Positions 3,361-34,937 of a stretch of 40,738 nucleotides of DNA are shown here, piece after piece. The DNA comes from a virus (lineage: Duplodnaviria > Heunggongvirae > Uroviricota > Caudoviricetes). The stretch lies in the IMG/VR virus record IMGVR_UViG_640753023_000013; one strand, 5' to 3'. The notes below the pieces were generated by a model. That model saw only the letters and a list, made by a program, of their open reading frames with translations. It was not told the DNA's origin and did no database searches. The first letter of the stretch is position 1, and every line of letters begins with the position of its first letter. Position numbers and translations under genes: made by a program.

Positions 3361-3388
3361 CCCGCAAAATATTGCGGGCTTTTTTTTA
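3361..3388 (+). terminator. Hairpin plus T-run oriented for + strand transcription, between tailspike and lysis cassette
   Basis: CCCGCAAAATATTGCGGG followed by tttttttt; orientation is opposite to the flanking genes. Confidence 0.4.
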
Positions 3389-6300
3389 ACGTTCTTCCAG
3401 AGACTGAATCCGCTCTTTTATCTTATCCATTTCTCTGCGCTGCCATGCTGCCTCGATATAGAATAAGAGATCAGGTCTGACCCCCCATCTAGATCCTGCT
3501 GGCGTTATTTCAACGCGCTCAATGATGTCTTCCATTACCATCACTGGATTATCATCCTCATCAACAATGATGCTCCCGTCATTATCAGTCAGCGGCATTT
3601 CCCTTTGGCCAGTAATGACGTCATCATATACTGCGGGATAATCGTCATAGCAAAGAAAGGCATAGCGGCATGTTGTGCTTTCTTCTTCCATGAGTCCGTG
3701 AGAAATAAGAACATCACGAAGTTGCTGCGCGATTACACCATGATGTATCCTCGCCCCTTCTTCCCCCTTTATAGCGACAGCGTTCAGCCATTTATAAGCG
3801 ATATACCTGACGTCACCCCAGGCATCCAGCAATGCTTCGTCAGGAGAGACCGGCTCTGTCTTTAATGTTCCGTCACTGGTAACCACAGGATTGGAGCCAA
3901 GATAAACTGTCGAGAACCTGTTTCCCGGACCACCAAGAGCATTTACATTATCAAGATAAGGTTTAACATCTCCGTTCTCAAAAAGATGTTCGAGTGCGTT
4001 ATATACCGCGCGACGTGGAGTACTGCTTCCGGAACCATGCAACGTTATCATTGCACCATCTGCTGAAGACGTTGTTTCACCTCCGCTAACGATTAATCTC
4101 TGAGCGGTAACATCATCAGACGGTACTTTCTTCGCAATAATGGCGTAATTACCCTCAAGTTTGACTTCCGCGCGAACTTGTCCTGATGTACCTGCATGGA
4201 CAGTCAGTGACTGGACGGCAACATCATCTGTGAAATCAACGGGTACAGGAACCGTCCTCACGCCTGACGTCGACATAAAAGTAGGAAGCGTTCTGTTAGG
4301 AGTGGCTCCGTAGACAAAATCCCTTGAAACAAATTCTTCCTGTTTAATTTTCACCCTGAAACAATACAAATCAGCCGGGTGACCATCGTGAACATAAGGA
4401 TATTTTCTGTTGTTATCCCCTATGCTCCATGGGTTTAGAAAGTCTTCCCCACCGAAAATGTAGTACAGCCAGTTGTCTTTGATACAAACTGAACCAACAC
4501 CAACCGCAGAGTTAACTATTCCGCCCTGATAAATCTGATCAGTAACATTAACCCACTCTACATTATCCAGACTCCACTCATTGACGTTAACTCTGGTCAT
4601 AAATGTTCTTGGATAATTTCCTGCATAACGGTTATCAGGTTCTCCTCCTTCCCACTCACCAAATGCGCGCTCACTGCCAAAAATAATCAGCTCATCGCCA
4701 ACTTTGGCAAAAGGAAGGTTTGAGTGATGAACATTATTTGGGAAGCGAAGAGAATTCCATGATGTACCTAAATCAGAGCTTCTGTGCAATGAACTACCGG
4801 GTTGAGTACTTAATGTCCCCCTGGTCGTCAGATACAGAATGCCATCATAATATTTTACACATGGCTCAGATGCATTCGCCTCATATTCTGCAGGTATGCG
4901 TCTGCGAACAAAGCTACCAGGAGAACCGAAAGCATCAGAGAAATAGAGTATCCCAAGCTCGCGTGGACCAATATCACCATTATGGTAGCCAACAGCAAAA
5001 CTGTTATCGCTAATCGTCGCAAAACTGTGAATCTCAGTAACAGGAGTGCTTCCGTCAACAAAAGAAGGAATAGTTCCAAGACTGGTTTTTCTCCATGGTG
5101 ACGAGTGAAATGATGTACCAAAACTCCAGTATCTACCCTCGTTATTCTGATCCACATCCTGGGTATTTTGCGTCGTAACTGTAAAAGTATTTTTATCAAT
5201 AACAGTAGTCACCGTCATATTCCCGGTAACACCTGTAACACCAGAGTTTGAGAAGTTGACAAAATCACCAGCAAATAATCCGTGATCAGTAATGCGAATA
5301 TAAGCGACTTGCTGATTTGCTGCTTTCGTTATACCACCATAAACGCGAAGGCTGCGACTCATTGGGCGATCCCACAACTCTGCAACCTGCAGTTTATTTC
5401 CGCTCACGGTCCGCGTCTCAATTACAGCAAAAAGGCGATTTCTGACAACCCCCATACTCATGCAGTGATAGTTAACTGTGGGATAGTTTTCATGTAAATC
5501 TGTAAGCCATTCCGGCGTTGTCCAGGTCTTCCCGTCATCTCCTGAGCGAACCCATGCAACATGGAGGTTATTTACACCATGGCGGTCTCCAGCCATAAAA
5601 GGCGCATAGATGACATTGTCATATACAAACGTTTTATCCTGCGTCCAGGCGTTGTACCACGGTGTATCTGTAATTTTAAATAACTCTCCCTGGATAAAAT
5701 CTTCAGAAGCATAAAAAAGAGGCTGGCCCGGTATTCTCTCAAATAAAAAACGAGCATTTTTAAATCGACTGACATCCGGAAGAGTTGATACTTTAAAAGT
5801 AAGCCCTAATCCGTCAATTTTATAACCTGGAGATGAGGCTTCAAGGCACGCGCTTATTGCAGTGGAATCGTCATTTATACCATCACCAACAGCTCCAAAA
5901 TCTTTGGGGCTAATAGCATCACGCATTTTATCCTGGAACGTTCGGTACACAGCCCCAGAACCATACTGAATAAACCAACCAAAACCACCAACAACCCCGG
6001 CGATTGCAGCATCGACATAATTACGCATTGAGCGATTATTTACAGCGTCCTGCTCAAATGATGGATCTGCAAGGTTAGAAATTTTGTTTTGCTTTGCATC
6101 GTAATATTTTGCAAGCAAAGATGGTTTCATCAATGCACGTCTGAACCACCCAAAACATTGCTGGATCAGCATCGTCAGGTAGTCAAAGGCATCTTCATGC
6201 ACTTCGGGGAAAAATTTTCCCTGATTGCGAAGGTCTGTCTCCTGCACTACATCAAGCACACGATCTATCGTAATTCGCCATCCAGTAGCAAGCGGAGACG

Positions 6301-6505
6301 GAAGAACCACAGAACCGCCACTATAAGTGCCCGCCCCAGTTACCGTATAACCGGTATCCAGAACCAATTCTGTTACGTTCCCGTTCAGGTCAGACACCTG
6401 AACAACCAGGTCTGATTTTCTGAAAATTCGAAAAGTATACGGAAACGATGTCGTAACGCCGTTACCGGTGTATTCGTTGTGGTCAACTTCGGTTGAGACC
6501 GTCAT
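3386..6505 (-). CDS. Tailspike: N-terminal particle-binding domain, sialidase-like beta-propeller with two Asp-boxes, C-terminal intramolecular chaperone (peptidase S74-like); probable capsule depolymerase
   Basis: Asp-boxes SGDDGKTW and SSDLGTSW; C-terminus resembles the T5 L-shaped-fibre/endosialidase chaperone domain (SDGTLKTEP, FLCYDDY). Confidence 0.8.
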   Translation of the reverse strand: MTVSTEVDHNEYTGNGVTTSFPYTFRIFRKSDLVVQVSDLNGNVTELVLDTGYTVTGAGTYSGGSVVLPSPLATGWRITIDRVLDVVQETDLRNQGKFFPEVHEDAFDYLTMLIQQCFGWFRRALMKPSLLAKYYDAKQNKISNLADPSFEQDAVNNRSMRNYVDAAIAGVVGGFGWFIQYGSGAVYRTFQDKMRDAISPKDFGAVGDGINDDSTAISACLEASSPGYKIDGLGLTFKVSTLPDVSRFKNARFLFERIPGQPLFYASEDFIQGELFKITDTPWYNAWTQDKTFVYDNVIYAPFMAGDRHGVNNLHVAWVRSGDDGKTWTTPEWLTDLHENYPTVNYHCMSMGVVRNRLFAVIETRTVSGNKLQVAELWDRPMSRSLRVYGGITKAANQQVAYIRITDHGLFAGDFVNFSNSGVTGVTGNMTVTTVIDKNTFTVTTQNTQDVDQNNEGRYWSFGTSFHSSPWRKTSLGTIPSFVDGSTPVTEIHSFATISDNSFAVGYHNGDIGPRELGILYFSDAFGSPGSFVRRRIPAEYEANASEPCVKYYDGILYLTTRGTLSTQPGSSLHRSSDLGTSWNSLRFPNNVHHSNLPFAKVGDELIIFGSERAFGEWEGGEPDNRYAGNYPRTFMTRVNVNEWSLDNVEWVNVTDQIYQGGIVNSAVGVGSVCIKDNWLYYIFGGEDFLNPWSIGDNNRKYPYVHDGHPADLYCFRVKIKQEEFVSRDFVYGATPNRTLPTFMSTSGVRTVPVPVDFTDDVAVQSLTVHAGTSGQVRAEVKLEGNYAIIAKKVPSDDVTAQRLIVSGGETTSSADGAMITLHGSGSSTPRRAVYNALEHLFENGDVKPYLDNVNALGGPGNRFSTVYLGSNPVVTSDGTLKTEPVSPDEALLDAWGDVRYIAYKWLNAVAIKGEEGARIHHGVIAQQLRDVLISHGLMEEESTTCRYAFLCYDDYPAVYDDVITGQREMPLTDNDGSIIVDEDDNPVMVMEDIIERVEITPAGSRWGVRPDLLFYIEAAWQRREMDKIKERIQSLEER

Positions 6506-6609
6506 GTTAAATCTCCAGATAGTCGCAGCACCCGTTGCGCCGCATATCTGGTTATTCTATTACCTGGAAAACCACATATGGATAGAAAGGCTGTAAATAC
6601 GAATAGATA

Positions 6610-6624
6610 TTACCTTTCAGGTAA
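6610..6624. promoter_or_regulatory. Operator palindrome TTACC-TTTCA-GGTAA (site 1, perfect)
   Basis: Between tailspike start and the LexA-box gene. Confidence 0.6.
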
Positions 6625-6661
6625 TTTGCAAAACGTGCTGGATAGCAAACAAATTATTTGC

Positions 6662-6681
6662 TACTGTATAAATATACAGTT
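6662..6681. promoter_or_regulatory. LexA (SOS) box
   Basis: TACTGTATAAATATACAGTT, 18/20 match to consensus TACTGTATATATATACAGTA, 20 bp upstream of the ATG at 6701. Confidence 0.8.
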
Positions 6682-6700
6682 ATTGCATGGAGAAGATAAG

Positions 6701-6958
6701 ATGCAGCAGTATCACTATCCACTGGAAGACGGATTTACCGAAAGGATTCACACGCCGGGAGGCGTCAGGTCACTGGTGGAGGGATCGCACTTGATGAAAT
6801 TACTCCGGGATCTCGATAAGGATGGATTTAATGTCGATGGCCCACTTGCCGAACTGACTGCACTGATTAACTACGTCACCAGCTCACAGATGTCTATGCG
6901 GGATCTGCAAACACATCTCGACTATTGTGCCGAACAATTACGAAAACAAACCAGATAA
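6701..6958 (+). CDS. Small antirepressor-related protein (homolog of the C-terminal domain of the downstream BRO-N protein)
   Basis: ATG with GGAGAAG RBS; residues 20-85 align with the C-terminus of the 7274-7969 product (LMxLL, DG, RDxQTH); ORF track start 6578 rejected. Confidence 0.6.
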   Translation: MQQYHYPLEDGFTERIHTPGGVRSLVEGSHLMKLLRDLDKDGFNVDGPLAELTALINYVTSSQMSMRDLQTHLDYCAEQLRKQTR

Positions 6959-7092
6959 GGTTTGCAATTACCAAGTGGAGTGCTTATATTTACCTTTGAG
7001 ATAAATTTACATCGCACTCCTCTTGTGCCATAGTAATCGGGCACTGGCAAAATCCAGTGCCGGGATTGGCGTCCCGGATTACTAAAAGGCGC

Positions 7093-7118
7093 ATTCACCG
7101 CGCAAGCGGTTTTTTTAT
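7093..7118 (+). terminator. Short hairpin plus T-run in the leader of the BRO-N gene
   Basis: CCGCgcaaGCGG followed by ttttttt. Confidence 0.4.
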
Positions 7119-7273
7119 GCGTATAGCACGGCCACATTCGTATTATGGTGGGCTGTGTGGGGGCACCGAAAGGTGCGCCGGGTCCTTTTAGCCGGTTACG
7201 CCAACCCTGCACAGTTCACCACCAACCGATTGGCGTCGGTAGTGGTGATTAACCAGACTAAAAGGTAACCACT

Positions 7274-7969
7274 ATGACAGCTACAAAAAGCACGTCCATT
7301 TTTTCTTTCGAATCCCAAGCCGATATACGGGTAATCGTCATTAATGGTGAGCCATGGTTTATCGCTTCAGATGTTTGTCGGGCTATAGGCATAGCAAACC
7401 ATCGAGATGCTGTTCGAAAACTTGATGATGATGAGAAGGGCGTCGCTTCAACCGACACCCCTGGCGGTGAGCAAGAATCGATCATCATCTCCGAGTCAGG
7501 CCTCTACACACTGATCCTCCGCTGCCGCGACGCAGTGACACCAGGCACTATCCCCTACCGCTTTCGTAAATGGGTTACAGGTGAGGTTCTTCCTCAGATC
7601 CGCCGCACCGGAAGCTACATTAAAAACTCGCTCCCGCAGGAAGAACGCATAAAGATGGTTGCCGACCAGGTAGCCAACGCCACGGCGTCAGCAGTAATGC
7701 AGGCGATGAAGATAGAGAACAAAACCTACAGCGCCCCGCTGAAGCCCGGCTACCGCAGCCTGATTCACTCGCCGTCTGGTGTTCTCGGCCTGACGGAAAA
7801 CTCACTGCTGATGAATCTGCTGAACCAGTTACAGGAAGACGGGCACGACGTATCGGGCGCGGCGGCGGAGGTGACCACCATGTTCTGCTACATCGTCGGT
7901 GTGAGTAAATGCCTGCGTGATATCCAGACCCACGCGGAATACATCAACGACAAGGCAGGGTTCTTCTGA
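7274..7969 (+). CDS. BRO-N domain antirepressor-type protein
   Basis: N-terminal Bro-N signature (IRVIVINGEPWFIASDVCRAIG, DDDEKG); C-terminal domain shared with the 6701 gene. Confidence 0.8.
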   Translation: MTATKSTSIFSFESQADIRVIVINGEPWFIASDVCRAIGIANHRDAVRKLDDDEKGVASTDTPGGEQESIIISESGLYTLILRCRDAVTPGTIPYRFRKWVTGEVLPQIRRTGSYIKNSLPQEERIKMVADQVANATASAVMQAMKIENKTYSAPLKPGYRSLIHSPSGVLGLTENSLLMNLLNQLQEDGHDVSGAAAEVTTMFCYIVGVSKCLRDIQTHAEYINDKAGFF

Positions 7970-8041
7970 CGGGCGGCGGCACAGGGATGAGCCTTTAAAT
8001 AATTCTGTACAGATTGCAGACTGGGGGTGAATAGCGTACTA

Positions 8042-8056
8042 TTACCTCAAGGGTAA
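8042..8056. promoter_or_regulatory. Operator palindrome TTACC-TCAAG-GGTAA (site 2, perfect), overlapping a candidate promoter (TTGCAG-N17-TACTAT)
   Basis: 60 bp upstream of the moron gene at 8116. Confidence 0.55.
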
Positions 8057-8115
8057 GAAAGCATTTTTAATCTTCCCTTCAAAACGCGTCCTGTAGCCAA
8101 ACATGGGAGGACGAA

Positions 8116-8748
8116 ATGAGAACAAATACAACAAGAAAAGCGATGCCATACATTATCCCAGAAGCAGATTTCGATAGAAAACTGAACATGTCTGAGAAGA
8201 ACACTAGTCACACCGAAAGCTACTTAGCGAAAGGTGTGGTTGATTTCGTTCTTCCGGGATTCACAACACCTTATGGTTATCGCCTTGTAAAATCTTGTAA
8301 TGGCGATCATTACAGAATGATTACTACCAGCGATACTCCAGAAACGGTGTATGCGGTTAAGTTAATCTTTCGGGAAGATATCGTCGAAGCCAAAAGAACA
8401 TGTACGCAGATCATGGTATGGCGTACGCCTAATGTTATTCATGACCGTGCTGTTCATGGTTTGCCTCAGATTTTTTTTCAGTTCTTCCTAGAGCAATATG
8501 CGATCGTTGTATCTGATGAGCAACAAACAATCGATGGGAGAAGATTCTGGGAAAGAATGATTTCTTGGGCTATAAACACCCCAGGATATAATGTATACGT
8601 TTCAGATGGCTCTGAAGAAGATAGACCTCTTAGCTTCATGACATCATGGGATGATTTCTATAGCCAGTGGGCTGATTTCTGTTGGGGCAGTGATAAAGAT
8701 GTGCATACCCACAGACTACTGGTTATAAGCAAAGATAAACTGCATTAA
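8116..8748 (+). CDS. Hypothetical protein, AT-rich moron with own terminator; no recognisable domain
   Basis: 210 aa, GGGAGG RBS, AT-rich composition unlike neighbours. Confidence 0.65.
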   Translation: MRTNTTRKAMPYIIPEADFDRKLNMSEKNTSHTESYLAKGVVDFVLPGFTTPYGYRLVKSCNGDHYRMITTSDTPETVYAVKLIFREDIVEAKRTCTQIMVWRTPNVIHDRAVHGLPQIFFQFFLEQYAIVVSDEQQTIDGRRFWERMISWAINTPGYNVYVSDGSEEDRPLSFMTSWDDFYSQWADFCWGSDKDVHTHRLLVISKDKLH

Positions 8749-26052: not shown

Positions 26053-26129
26053 GTGGCATTAGCTCAGTTGGACAGAGCAACCGCCTTCTAAGCGGTTGGT
26101 CGCGGGTTCGAATCCTGCATGCCACGCCA
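26053..26129 (+). tRNA. tRNA-Arg (anticodon TCT, reads AGA), phage-encoded
   Basis: Cloverleaf: acceptor GTGGCAT/ATGCCAC, anticodon stem ACCGC/GCGGT with loop CTTCTAA, T-loop GGTTCGAATCC, genomic CCA; differs from E. coli argU in acceptor and anticodon stems. Confidence 0.9.
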
Positions 26130-34352: not shown

Positions 34353-34937
34353 ATGAAAAGTATCCAGGACGTCCGCAGGCAAAATCTCAACGACTTGATC
34401 GACCGTGAATTCAATGGTGTTCAGACGCGGATGGCAGAAAAACTTGGAACTCAGGCAAATCTGGTAAACCGCTGGGCTCTTGGCAAGAAGGTTATCGGCG
34501 ACCAGGTTGCGCGAAAAATTGAAGCTGCCGCCAATAAACCACGTAACTGGCTTGATATCGATCGCTCGCTTTCTCAGGAAGGTTTTCAGCCTGTCGGCCC
34601 GAGCGATATAGGTCAGCTGGCGGCTCACAACCTGGAACGCTGGATGAGCGAAAGCCGCGACCTTTCAACACAGGGAAAACTTCACCGCGCATCCGGCGTC
34701 GCCCAGGTGACAATCAGCCGCCTGTTAAACAATGAGGTCAGCGTTTCCATTTCCACCCTGGAGAATGTTGCATCCGCATTCGGGCGTCACGGATATGAAC
34801 TACTGATTCACCCGCACGACCCTGCGACTATCAACTATGACCGCTCACGCTACGCATTGTTACCCGAAACCGAGAAAGCAAAGATCGAAAGTTACATTGA
34901 ATTTGTCATCAACCAGAACGAAAAAAGCAAACAATAA
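34353..34937 (+). CDS. Prophage repressor with two HTH (XRE-type) domains and no S24 peptidase domain
   Basis: Two HTH-like segments (QTRMAEKLGTQANLVNRW and LHRASGVAQVTISRLL); no Ala-Gly/Ser-Lys self-cleavage module. Confidence 0.7.
   Translation: MKSIQDVRRQNLNDLIDREFNGVQTRMAEKLGTQANLVNRWALGKKVIGDQVARKIEAAANKPRNWLDIDRSLSQEGFQPVGPSDIGQLAAHNLERWMSESRDLSTQGKLHRASGVAQVTISRLLNNEVSVSISTLENVASAFGRHGYELLIHPHDPATINYDRSRYALLPETEKAKIESYIEFVINQNEKSKQ

What the first reader, a model, noticed from the sequence alone, without database searches (positions are those of the whole stretch)
6959..7273. Structured 315-bp leader between the two antirepressor-type genes
The leader holds a stem-loop (GGAGTGC...GCACTCC, 6976-7020) that encloses a degenerate operator half-site, then nested and mutually exclusive hairpins (7031-7083), then a short hairpin with T-run (7093-7118), and a repeated GATTGGCGTC motif (7064 and 7229). 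This looks like an attenuator or small-RNA locus, comparable in role to P22 sar upstream of ant.
Basis: seen in the sequence. Interest (0 to 1): 0.4.

Follow-up and report, generated by a model that had tools for sequence, protein, structure and literature searches.

The report
Known C4/IsrK antisense-RNA switch for antirepressor
The "structured leader" is an unannotated copy of a well-known phage control module (phage P1's C4 antisense RNA plus an IsrK-type leader RNA) that most likely keeps the prophage's antirepressor gene untranslated, so it is real but ordinary.

Summary
Rfam places an IsrK-type RNA at 7041-7116 (77.9 bits, cut-off 50) and a C4 antisense RNA at 7141-7226 (77.7 bits, cut-off 45).

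Each is complementary to an unpaired segment of C4. The downstream CTAAAAGG contains the Shine-Dalgarno sequence of the Bro-N antirepressor gene (ATG 7274).

In 16 homologous loci the C4 segments and both target copies change together: 99-100% of cells stay paired, and 5 of 7 positions show compensatory changes. The architecture matches P1/P7 immI, Gifsy-1 isrK-"orf45"-anrP and APSE phages.

The first ~80 bp of the supposed leader is promoter and operator DNA. The 6977-7020 stem-loop is not conserved.

The mechanism is P1-C4-type, not P22 sar-type. Novelty: already known. Interest is low. No expression data were available.

The parts
6962..6990 (+). Upstream sigma-70-like promoter (TTGCAA-17-TATATT). 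Its -10 box abuts the operator-like site. Prediction only.
   Evidence: A TTGnnn...TAnnAT arrangement is visible by eye at the same place in the relatives printed; it was not scored.
6977..7020 (.). It encloses the operator-like site and the -35 box. Not conserved.
   Evidence: Searches show it is present (z = -4.05); the 5' arm is absent in Tyrion, EC.W1-9, TL-2011b, Kp4865-1 and Kp phi13.3.
6990..7004 (.). Operator-like site TTACCTTTGAGATAA, a one-mismatch copy of the dispersed palindrome TTACC-N5-GGTAA.
   Evidence: 8 perfect copies against 0.02 expected. The copy is perfect at this position in all 9 relatives. Copies cluster around the HTH_3 gene 34353-34937.
7006..7034 (+). Promoter of the IsrK-C4-ant unit: -35 TTTACA, 17-nt spacer, TG-extended -10 CATAGT. 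Predicted start near 7041.
   Evidence: all 16 homologous loci have a sigma-70-like promoter in the same register, with the -10 ending 6 nt (8 in one locus) before Rfam isrK position 1.
7041..7116 (+). IsrK-type leader RNA: hairpin 1 (7041-7060), hairpin 2 (7061-7076), single-stranded spacer, and intrinsic terminator (7097-7116).
   Evidence: Rfam RF01394, 77.9 bits against cut-off 50. Fold. Compensatory changes in hairpin 1.
7066..7072 (+). Target copy a1 (UUGGCGU) in the loop of hairpin 2. Complementary to C4 7198-7204.
   Evidence: 99.1% of cells paired across 16 loci, 5 of 7 pairs with compensatory changes, 0 of 500 shuffles as high.
7082..7089 (+). Target copy b1 (CUAAAAGG) in the spacer before the terminator. 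Complementary to the C4 loop 7184-7191.
   Evidence: cognate duplex mean -11.65 against non-cognate -4.13 kcal/mol; no permutation of 20000 as low.
7141..7226 (+). C4 antisense RNA (Rfam match). Predicted mature form 7147-7223, 77 nt, with a GGU 5' end and an ACC(A) 3' tail.
   Evidence: Rfam RF01695, 77.7 bits against cut-off 45. Fold z = -4.70. The same fold appears in 16 loci plus P1. Compensatory pairs. The mature ends are inferred from the P1 annotation and PMC5320573.
7184..7191 (+). b' : CCUUUUAG in the loop of C4 hairpin 2.
7198..7204 (+). a' : ACGCCAA in the unpaired segment 3' of C4 hairpin 2.
7230..7236 (+). Target a2 (UUGGCGU), 4 nt after the C4 match.
   Evidence: 100% of cells paired, 5 of 7 pairs compensatory, 0 of 500 shuffles as high.
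7240..7274 (+). Hairpin (stem 7240-7246 / 7268-7274) that presents b2 and the Shine-Dalgarno sequence in its loop and reaches the A of the start codon.
   Evidence: z = -2.3. RNAalifold helix shows one-sided changes only. The 5' arm region (7242-7248) can alternatively pair with the C4 3' strand 7216-7222.
7258..7265 (+). Target b2 (CUAAAAGG). It contains the Shine-Dalgarno AAGG, 8 nt before ATG 7274.
   Evidence: cognate -11.59 against non-cognate -5.49 kcal/mol; no permutation of 20000 as low.
7274..7969 (+). Regulated gene: Bro-N antirepressor, 231 aa.
   Evidence: Pfam Bro-N, E = 2.2e-21. PHROG anti-repressor Ant families. The phage ZX5 match to window 6500-8000 is 98.7% identical and covers its annotated anti-repressor gene. 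PMC9782041 reports that overexpressing ZX5's Bro-N anti-repressor ORF4 lowers the prophage titre; that ORF4 is this gene is assumed, not checked.

Best explanation
The intergenic region is a P1-immI-type antisense-RNA control unit for the Bro-N antirepressor gene.

Inferred steps:
1. A sigma-70 promoter (7006-7034) next to a repressor operator-like site starts transcription near 7041.
2. Many transcripts stop at the intrinsic terminator (7097-7116). This gives a ~76-nt IsrK-type RNA that carries decoy copies a1 and b1 of the two C4 target motifs.
3. Read-through transcripts contain the C4 RNA. By analogy with P1, host RNase P cuts it out 5' of G7147, giving a ~77-nt RNA with a tRNA-like ACC(A) end.
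4. The two unpaired segments of C4 (loop CCUUUUAG and bulge ACGCCAA) pair with a2 (7230-7236) and b2 (7258-7265) on the message.
5. Because b2 contains the Shine-Dalgarno sequence, ribosomes cannot load and the antirepressor is not made in the lysogen.
6. The IsrK-type RNA can titrate C4 through a1 and b1, or C4 can act on the nascent leader. The balance of the two RNAs therefore sets the switch.

Shown here: family membership, the folds, the complementarity, and its co-variation across homologs. Not shown: transcription, processing, repression, and the decoy role.
For: Family and fold:
- Rfam matches above curated cut-offs for isrK and C4.
- The identical three-helix C4 fold is predicted in 16 loci and P1.
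- 17 of 43 consensus pairs show compensatory changes.

Complementarity and its co-variation:
- a':a1 is paired in 99.1% of cells and a':a2 in 100%, each with 5 of 7 positions compensatory and 0 of 500 shuffles as high.
- The b' loop pairs best with its own b1 in 15 of 16 loci and with its own b2 in 14 of 16. No permutation of 20000 was as low.
- The combined motif TTGGCGT-N(5-35)-CTAAAAGG occurs three times in the window, twice as targets and once as C4's reverse complement, against 0.01 expected.

Position relative to the gene:
- b2 lies 8 nt before the ATG of a Bro-N antirepressor gene.
- The P1 GenBank record shows the same order: operator, promoters, a1, b1, C4, a2, b2/RBS.

Same layout elsewhere:
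- Gifsy-1 has isrK, C4 and then anrP.
- APSE phages have isrK, C4 and a BRO-N gene, with the a'/b' matches noted in print (PMC7313666).

Promoter and processing:
- The promoter register is conserved in 16 of 16 loci.
- The GGU 5' end and ACC(A) tail fit the RNase P site reported for P1/P7 C4 (PMC5320573, citing Hartmann 1995).
Against: - There are no expression or processing data for this prophage.
- P1's translationally coupled icd gene is absent. Here b2 sits directly on the ant Shine-Dalgarno sequence.
- The operator copy is degenerate in this window (GATAA instead of GGTAA), so repressor control of the promoter is uncertain.
- RNAcofold predicts no net gain for C4 plus target (-62.0 against -62.0 kcal/mol). 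This program cannot model loop-loop contacts, so the result is uninformative rather than contrary.
- In Gifsy-1 the published model explains control by a structural switch and a leader ORF, not by a free C4 repressor (PMC4825925).
Confidence: 0.85

Rival explanations
1. Gifsy-1-type activation model. The long transcript is locked in a translationally silent fold because a1/b1 pair in cis with the C4 region. The short IsrK-type RNA acts in trans to open it. Translation of a leader ORF that starts at the C4 AUG (7145) then switches on ant by translational coupling.
For: The Rfam architecture is the same as Gifsy-1. In Gifsy-1, IsrK in trans raised anrP translation 139-fold, and compensatory mutations supported the cis helix (PMC4825925). 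The window has an ORF at 7145-7252 of 35 aa. The a1-b1 stretch of the leader looks complementary to about 30 nt of C4 (my reading of the sequences; duplexfold energy).
Against: The ORF from the C4 AUG is not conserved. It is 14-15 aa in the near relatives HEMP4 and Tyrion, 35 aa here, and open in others. Here it ends 21 nt before the ant ATG, so coupling is unlikely. The region evolves by compensatory base-pair changes, as an RNA does. RNase P cleavage as in P1 would remove the AUG. The activating effect of IsrK is equally explained by titration of C4.
Confidence: 0.25
2. Transcription-termination control, as in P4 CI RNA or N15 CB RNA. C4 pairs with a1/b1 on the nascent leader and forces termination at 7097-7116, so it autoregulates read-through into c4 and ant.
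For: b1 ends 7 nt before the terminator stem. A small alternative hairpin (GCGC 7089-7092 with GCGC 7100-7103) competes with the terminator. An equivalent 4-6 bp helix is predicted in most of the 16 loci: 14 by truncated-leader folding, and all 16 by duplex folding. The Gifsy-1 authors raise this possibility.
Against: The alternative helix is GC-rich and barely more specific for its own partner than for others: -7.69 against -6.94 kcal/mol, permutation p = 0.02. No experiment supports it in the C4 family. It does not explain why b2 sits on the Shine-Dalgarno sequence.
Confidence: 0.2
3. The region encodes small proteins, as some phage records annotate it, or an N-terminal extension of the antirepressor.
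For: CDS features are annotated over the equivalent region in several phage records. In several loci the C4 AUG is in frame with the ant ATG.
Against: ORF length and frame are not conserved. Rfam scores are strong and helices show compensatory changes.
Confidence: 0.03
4. A P22 sar-like cis-antisense RNA is transcribed from the minus strand across the ant ribosome-binding site.
For: None beyond the position upstream of an ant-type gene.
Against: There is no sar match even at E <= 10 and no minus-strand promoter-like site in 6400-8200. All conserved structure is on the plus strand.
Confidence: 0.02

Closest known systems
Phage P1/P7 immI operon: C4 antisense RNA controlling icd-ant (Rfam RF01695; Citron & Schuster 1990)
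   Same: The order is the same on one strand: operator, promoter(s), a1, b1, a terminator-like hairpin, C4, a2, then b2 over a ribosome-binding site, then the antirepressor. The C4 fold is the same. The predicted RNA is also 77 nt, with a GG(U) 5' end and an ACC tail. Specificity lies in two short variable segments that co-vary with the targets.
   Different: There is no icd gene; b2 covers the Shine-Dalgarno sequence of the antirepressor itself. The antirepressor is a Bro-N protein. The operator type and repressor differ (palindromic TTACC-N5-GGTAA against the asymmetric C1 operator). The P1 leader scores only 35 bits on the isrK model, below the cut-off of 50. The host phage is an epsilon15-like podovirus, not a P1-like plasmid prophage.
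Salmonella Gifsy-1 isrK-orf45-anrP locus (Rfam RF01394; Hershko-Shalev 2016, PMC4825925)
   Same: An isrK match is followed by a C4 match and then an antirepressor gene. The a-type motif is identical (GATTGGCGTC). The promoter register is the same by eye. A processed RNA downstream of IsrK (STnc1160) is reported.
   Different: The b-type motif differs. The published mechanism invokes a leader ORF ('orf45'), which is not conserved here. The downstream effects reported there (AntQ toxicity) are specific to Gifsy-1.
APSE phages of Hamiltonella: isrK + C4 + BRO-N gene (Rouil 2020, PMC7313666)
   Same: The same trio sits upstream of a Bro-N gene. The authors note that a'/b' match the region upstream of that gene. 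APSE-7 aligns over the whole unit.
   Different: The a and b motifs are different. The GenBank record labels a' and b' in the opposite order to the P1 target naming. The genome location differs.
P4 CI RNA with seqA/seqC, and N15 CB RNA
   Same: A small RNA is processed from the leader of its own operon and pairs with repeated complementary sites upstream and downstream of itself. The Gifsy-1 authors call IsrK a structural homolog of P4 seqA.
   Different: According to that paper's account of P4, the RNA acts by premature transcription termination. Here the downstream target overlaps a Shine-Dalgarno sequence. Sequence homology was not tested here. The N15 comparison rests on my own knowledge.
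P22 sar RNA upstream of ant
   Same: A small RNA blocks translation of an antirepressor gene in a secondary immunity region.
   Different: By established knowledge, sar is transcribed from the opposite strand and overlaps its target. Nothing of that kind is seen here.

Membership tests
C4 antisense RNA (Rfam RF01695; P1/P7 type) | Covariance-model score at or above the curated cut-off | tested here: met
   77.7 bits against a cut-off of 45, full-length match 1-87 of 87 at 7141-7226.
C4 antisense RNA (Rfam RF01695; P1/P7 type) | Long basal stem enclosing two hairpins plus an unpaired segment | tested here: met
   MFE fold with z = -4.70. The same fold appears in 16 loci and P1. Compensatory pairs in the basal stem and hairpin 1.
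C4 antisense RNA (Rfam RF01695; P1/P7 type) | Two unpaired segments (a', b') complementary to target pairs upstream (a1, b1) and downstream (a2, b2) on the same strand | tested here: met
   for the window. Co-variation.
C4 antisense RNA (Rfam RF01695; P1/P7 type) | The downstream b target overlaps the ribosome-binding site of the first gene of the antirepressor operon | tested here: met
   b2 at 7258-7265 contains AAGG, 8 nt before ATG 7274 of the Bro-N gene.
C4 antisense RNA (Rfam RF01695; P1/P7 type) | Cut out of a longer transcript by RNase P | not testable with these tools
   Only the sequence signs are present: GGU at 7147-7149 and an ACCA tail at 7221-7224, matching the P1 annotation and the site described in PMC5320573.
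P1 immI operon (c4-icd-ant) | An icd-like ORF between C4 and ant, translationally coupled to ant | tested here: not met
   No ORF lies between C4 and ATG 7274. The ORF from the C4 AUG is not conserved.
P1 immI operon (c4-icd-ant) | Promoter region carries an operator for the primary prophage repressor | tested here: inconclusive
   A one-mismatch copy of a highly over-represented palindrome lies at 6990-7004, and the copy is perfect in relatives. Repressor binding is untested.
IsrK RNA (Rfam RF01394) | Covariance-model score at or above the curated cut-off | tested here: met
   77.9 bits against a cut-off of 50, full-length match at 7041-7116.
IsrK RNA (Rfam RF01394) | Two 5' hairpins, a spacer and an intrinsic terminator, placed directly upstream of a C4-like RNA and an antirepressor gene | tested here: met
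   Same arrangement in Gifsy-1 and in 15 further phage loci.
IsrK RNA (Rfam RF01394) | Accumulates as a short Hfq-binding RNA that activates antirepressor translation in trans | not testable with these tools
   Known only for Gifsy-1 (PMC4825925).
c4-a1b1 motif (Rfam RF03163) | Covariance-model score at or above the curated cut-off | tested here: not met
   45.1 bits against a cut-off of 46.7 at 7028-7080. This is a narrow miss. The model overlaps isrK and includes the -10 box.
P22 sar cis-antisense RNA | Transcribed from the strand opposite ant, overlapping its ribosome-binding site | tested here: not met
   No sar match at E <= 10 and no minus-strand promoter-like site.

The most novel reading that the evidence does not exclude
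The a1/b1 leader is a regulated sponge for C4 that links the switch to DNA damage. The LexA-controlled gene just upstream (6701-6958) encodes a stand-alone paralog of the antirepressor's C-terminal domain. No terminator-like site was found on the + strand between it and 7097. SOS-driven read-through would therefore add transcripts that carry a1/b1, and that include the 7031-7038/7077-7084 outer stem. This would shift the IsrK:C4 balance and release Ant translation. Two paralogous antirepressor modules would then be coupled through one RNA switch.
Probability: 0.12. Interest if true: 0.45.

Novelty: already known. Interest (0 to 1): 0.15.

Why it matters
It matters little as a discovery. The module is described for P1/P7, Gifsy-1 and APSE, and curated Rfam models recognise it.

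It has practical value for annotation:
- The RNAs are not annotated in the close relatives whose records I examined (phiV10, ZX5, Tyrion). Twelve listed RefSeq E. coli matches show only protein-coding features under them. A match is found in 940 of 5426 complete E. coli genomes.
- Several phage records annotate CDSs across the equivalent RNA region.
- For epsilon15-like phages such as ZX5, whose Bro-N antirepressor was shown to push the phage towards lysis, it points to the likely missing control layer.

Tried and rejected
1. Conserved leader ORF from the C4 AUG: rejected. Its length varies from 14 to more than 47 aa, and it is truncated in near relatives.

2. The 6977-7020 stem-loop as a conserved RNA element: rejected. 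The 3' arm is kept because it lies in the promoter block. The 5' arm is lost in 5 of 7 distinct relatives. One Klebsiella phage has a different 7-bp repeat (ATGGGTT/AACCCAT) at the same place, which remains unexplained.

3. A terminator/anti-terminator alternative next to b1: such a helix is present in all loci but is barely partner-specific (p = 0.02), so I left it as a weak rival.

4. An alternative helix between the C4 3' strand (7216-7222) and GUGGUGA (7242-7248): 97.7% of cells paired but only 2 compensatory pairs. Suggestive only.

5. Further C4 targets elsewhere in the window: none found.

6. A minus-strand sar-like RNA: no support.

7. RNAcofold of C4 with its targets: no predicted gain. 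The program cannot model loop-loop pairing, so the result is uninformative.

8. Literature search for a C4 or IsrK description in phiV10/epsilon15-type phages: none found. The ZX5 paper does not contain the term 'sRNA'.

Full report
**Context**

The window is an epsilon15/phiV10-like (Uetakevirus) phage genome. It carries an endosialidase tailspike at 3386-6505 on the minus strand. The finding lies between two genes:
- an 85-aa gene at 6701-6958;
- a 231-aa Bro-N antirepressor gene at 7274-7969.

**Checking the observation**

- The inverted repeat GGAGTGC/GCACTCC lies at 6977-6983 and 7014-7020. As RNA it folds with z = -4.05.
- Hairpins 7041-7060 and 7061-7076 are nested in an outer stem 7031-7038/7077-7084 (z = -4.88). 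Longer arms 7031-7044/7071-7084 would exclude the inner hairpins.
- A terminator hairpin plus seven T residues lies at 7097-7116.
- GATTGGCGTC occurs at 7064-7073 and 7228-7237.
- The whole 332 nt folds with z = -7.0.

**What it is**

A scan against Rfam gives three matches:

| Rfam family | Position | Score (bits) | Cut-off (bits) |
|---|---|---|---|
| isrK | 7041-7116 | 77.9 | 50 |
| C4 antisense RNA | 7141-7226 | 77.7 | 45 |
| c4-a1b1 | 7028-7080 | 45.1 | 46.7 |

It folds into a 17-bp basal stem enclosing two hairpins and an 8-nt unpaired segment (z = -4.70).

Two of its unpaired stretches are complementary to motifs that each occur twice outside it:
- The loop CCUUUUAG (7184-7191) matches CUAAAAGG at 7082-7089 and 7258-7265.
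- The segment ACGCCAA (7198-7204) matches UUGGCGU at 7066-7072 and 7230-7236.

The combined pattern TTGGCGT-N(5-35)-CTAAAAGG occurs three times in 40.7 kb. Two are the targets and one is the reverse complement of C4. The chance expectation is 0.01.

The downstream CUAAAAGG contains the Shine-Dalgarno sequence of the antirepressor gene, 8 nt before ATG 7274.

**Comparison with P1**

The annotated P1 record has the same order: C1 operator, two promoters, a1, b1, C4 (77 nt), a2, b2 next to the icd ribosome-binding site, icd, ant. Reading the P1 sequence:
- 'a' (TTGACAG) pairs with the segment 3' of hairpin 2;
- 'b' (GTTAGTG) pairs with the hairpin-2 loop.

I use those names here. The window sites are therefore a1 7066-7072, b1 7082-7089, b' 7184-7191, a' 7198-7204, a2 7230-7236 and b2 7258-7265.

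Start-to-start spacings are similar. From a1 to b1 the distance is 16 nt here against 14 in P1. From a2 to b2 it is 28 against 29.

By alignment with the P1 annotation, mature C4 here would be 7147-7223, which is 77 nt. It would begin GGU and end in an ACC(A) tail. This is the kind of end reported for RNase P processing of P1/P7 C4 (PMC5320573, citing Hartmann 1995). Processing itself is inferred.

**Evidence from homologs**

The region matches 306 phage records and 940 of 5426 complete E. coli genomes. In the 12 best E. coli matches, only protein-coding features are listed under the match.

I fetched 15 diverse phage loci: Stx phages, cdtI, APSE-7, an Actinobacillus phage, Tyrion and a Klebsiella phage. 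All have isrK followed by C4, and one locus has two such modules in tandem. Sixteen units, including the window, were aligned from the IsrK start to the start codon.
- The consensus fold recovers IsrK hairpins 1 and 2 and the whole C4 structure. Seventeen of 43 pairs show compensatory changes.
- For a1:a', 99.1% of cells are paired. For a':a2, 100% are paired. In each case 5 of 7 positions have changes on both sides, no shuffle of 500 reaches the observed score, and slid controls fall to 24-55% paired.
- The b sites vary in length, so I compared duplex energies instead. Each C4 loop binds its own b1 (mean -11.65 against -4.13 kcal/mol for others) and its own b2 (-11.59 against -5.49). The cognate partner is best in 15 of 16 loci for b1 and 14 of 16 for b2. 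No permutation of 20000 was as low.

This is the signature of a specificity-determining RNA-RNA interaction.

**Published parallels**

- In Gifsy-1, the isrK match is followed by a C4 match and then anrP. From the positions given in the paper, the 'orf45' region appears to coincide with the C4 homolog, and the processed RNA STnc1160 is probably that RNA. Both equivalences are my inference.
- That study showed that IsrK read-through makes the antirepressor message. It also showed that IsrK in trans raises antirepressor translation 139-fold, and that IsrK and the downstream RNA are complementary (PMC4825925).
- APSE phage genomes were published with isrK, C4 and an adjacent BRO-N gene. The authors noted that a'/b' match the region upstream of that gene (PMC7313666).
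- The ZX5 match to window 6500-8000 is 98.7% identical and covers its annotated anti-repressor gene. Overexpressing ZX5's Bro-N anti-repressor ORF4 lowered the prophage titre about 1000-fold. That paper does not contain the term 'sRNA' (PMC9782041).

**The 5' part of the 'leader'**

All 16 loci have a sigma-70-like promoter whose -10 ends 6 nt (8 in one locus) before Rfam isrK position 1. In the window this is TTTACA (7006-7011), a 17-nt spacer, and TG-C-CATAGT (7026-7034). Transcription probably starts near 7041. On that reading 6959-7040 is DNA-level control, not leader RNA.

That palindrome is perfect at eight places in the window against 0.02 expected. Copies cluster on both sides of an HTH_3 gene at 34353-34937, a likely repressor. 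The copy at this position is perfect in all nine relatives examined.

A second promoter-like site (6962-6990) ends at the operator. This resembles P1's pair of c4 promoters, one of which is annotated as operator-controlled. That comparison is inference.

The GGAGTGC/GCACTCC repeat is not conserved. Its 3' arm lies in the conserved promoter block. Its 5' arm is replaced in Tyrion, EC.W1-9, TL-2011b and two Klebsiella phages.

**Mechanism and rivals**

My best-supported reading is the P1 model: C4 pairs with a2 and b2 and blocks ribosome loading on ant. The IsrK-type RNA, or the nascent leader, offers a second, contiguous complement to C4 and can counteract or autoregulate it.

Rivals considered:
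- The Gifsy-1 leader-ORF coupling model fits poorly here. The ORF from the C4 AUG is 35 aa in the window, 14-15 aa in close relatives and open in others, and it ends 21 nt before the ant ATG.
- A termination-control variant is possible. A small GC helix next to b1 competes with the terminator in the loci examined, but it is barely partner-specific (p = 0.02).
- A further alternative helix joins the C4 3' strand to GUGGUGA at 7242-7248. It is 97.7% paired but has only two compensatory pairs.
- A sar-like antisense transcript has no support.

**Verdict**

It misses the central RNA and picks the wrong analogue. The element is a plain member of the C4/IsrK family. It differs from P1 in lacking icd and in regulating a Bro-N antirepressor directly, as in APSE phages. 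Novelty: already known. Interest is low. Its value is in annotation.

Noticed in passing
window 6662-6681 and 6701-6958: A near-consensus LexA box (TACTGTATAAATATACAGTT, the only such site in the window) precedes the 85-aa gene. That protein is a stand-alone paralog of the C-terminal domain of the Bro-N antirepressor: 42% identity, E = 4e-16, and both hit phrog_450. The prophage may therefore carry one SOS-controlled and one C4-controlled antirepressor-type protein side by side.
   Followed up: partly
window 6610, 8042, 28885, 31934, 31996, 34283, 34995, 35057 (15-bp sites): Eight perfect copies of the palindrome TTACC-N5-GGTAA against 0.02 expected, plus five one-mismatch copies. Several flank the HTH_3 gene 34353-34937. 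Others sit upstream of the LexA-box gene and of gene 8116-8748. This looks like a dispersed operator set for the prophage repressor.
   Followed up: partly
L010 129-317 and 785-973 (phage PPyecE_EH1910): One phage carries two tandem IsrK-C4 modules with different a and b motifs, each matching its own targets.
   Followed up: no
L006 (phage PhiR26_1) 880-1014: This C4 has a1, b1 and a2 but no b2 in front of the downstream Rha gene. Its loop binds 14 foreign b2 regions better than its own. It may be a module left orphaned by recombination.
   Followed up: no
L011 425-1573, L014 557-1579, L010 731-1390, L004 832-999, L005 863-1036: Phage records annotate CDSs straight across the IsrK/C4 RNAs. In several loci the C4 AUG is in frame with the antirepressor start, which would give a spurious N-terminal extension.
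   Followed up: partly
window 7048-7053; alignment A1 columns 8-14: The loop of IsrK hairpin 1 (CAAAAU) has invariant A10 A11 A12 C14 in all 16 loci. I found no complementary partner for it by eye. Its role is unexplained.
   Followed up: no
L016 (Klebsiella phage ST11-OXA245phi3.2), about 922-962: A different 7-bp inverted repeat (ATGGGTT/AACCCAT) flanks the operator and -35 box at the same place as GGAGTGC/GCACTCC in the window. Five other lineages lack any such repeat. Coincidence or a lineage-specific site: unresolved.
   Followed up: partly
window 6946-6965: The palindrome GCAAACC-AGATAA-GGTTTGC spans the stop codon of the 85-aa gene and has no T-run after it. GCAAAC-type motifs recur at 6642-6650, 6907-6916 and 7391-7399.
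   Followed up: no
L005 1508-1591 (phage phi330): An sRNA-Xcc1 match (73.5 bits, cut-off 53) lies between two antirepressor genes downstream of the C4 module.
   Followed up: no
window 26053-26129 and 1163-1179: A tRNA-Arg (anticodon TCT) gene lies inside the phage genome. There is a single copy of the attP core reported for phiV10, epsilon15 and ZX5, ATTGAGTGGGAATGATT.
   Followed up: no
window 3386-6505 (minus strand): The tailspike is an endosialidase with a Peptidase_S74 chaperone domain, which suggests K1-capsule specificity, on an epsilon15/phiV10-type backbone.
   Followed up: no
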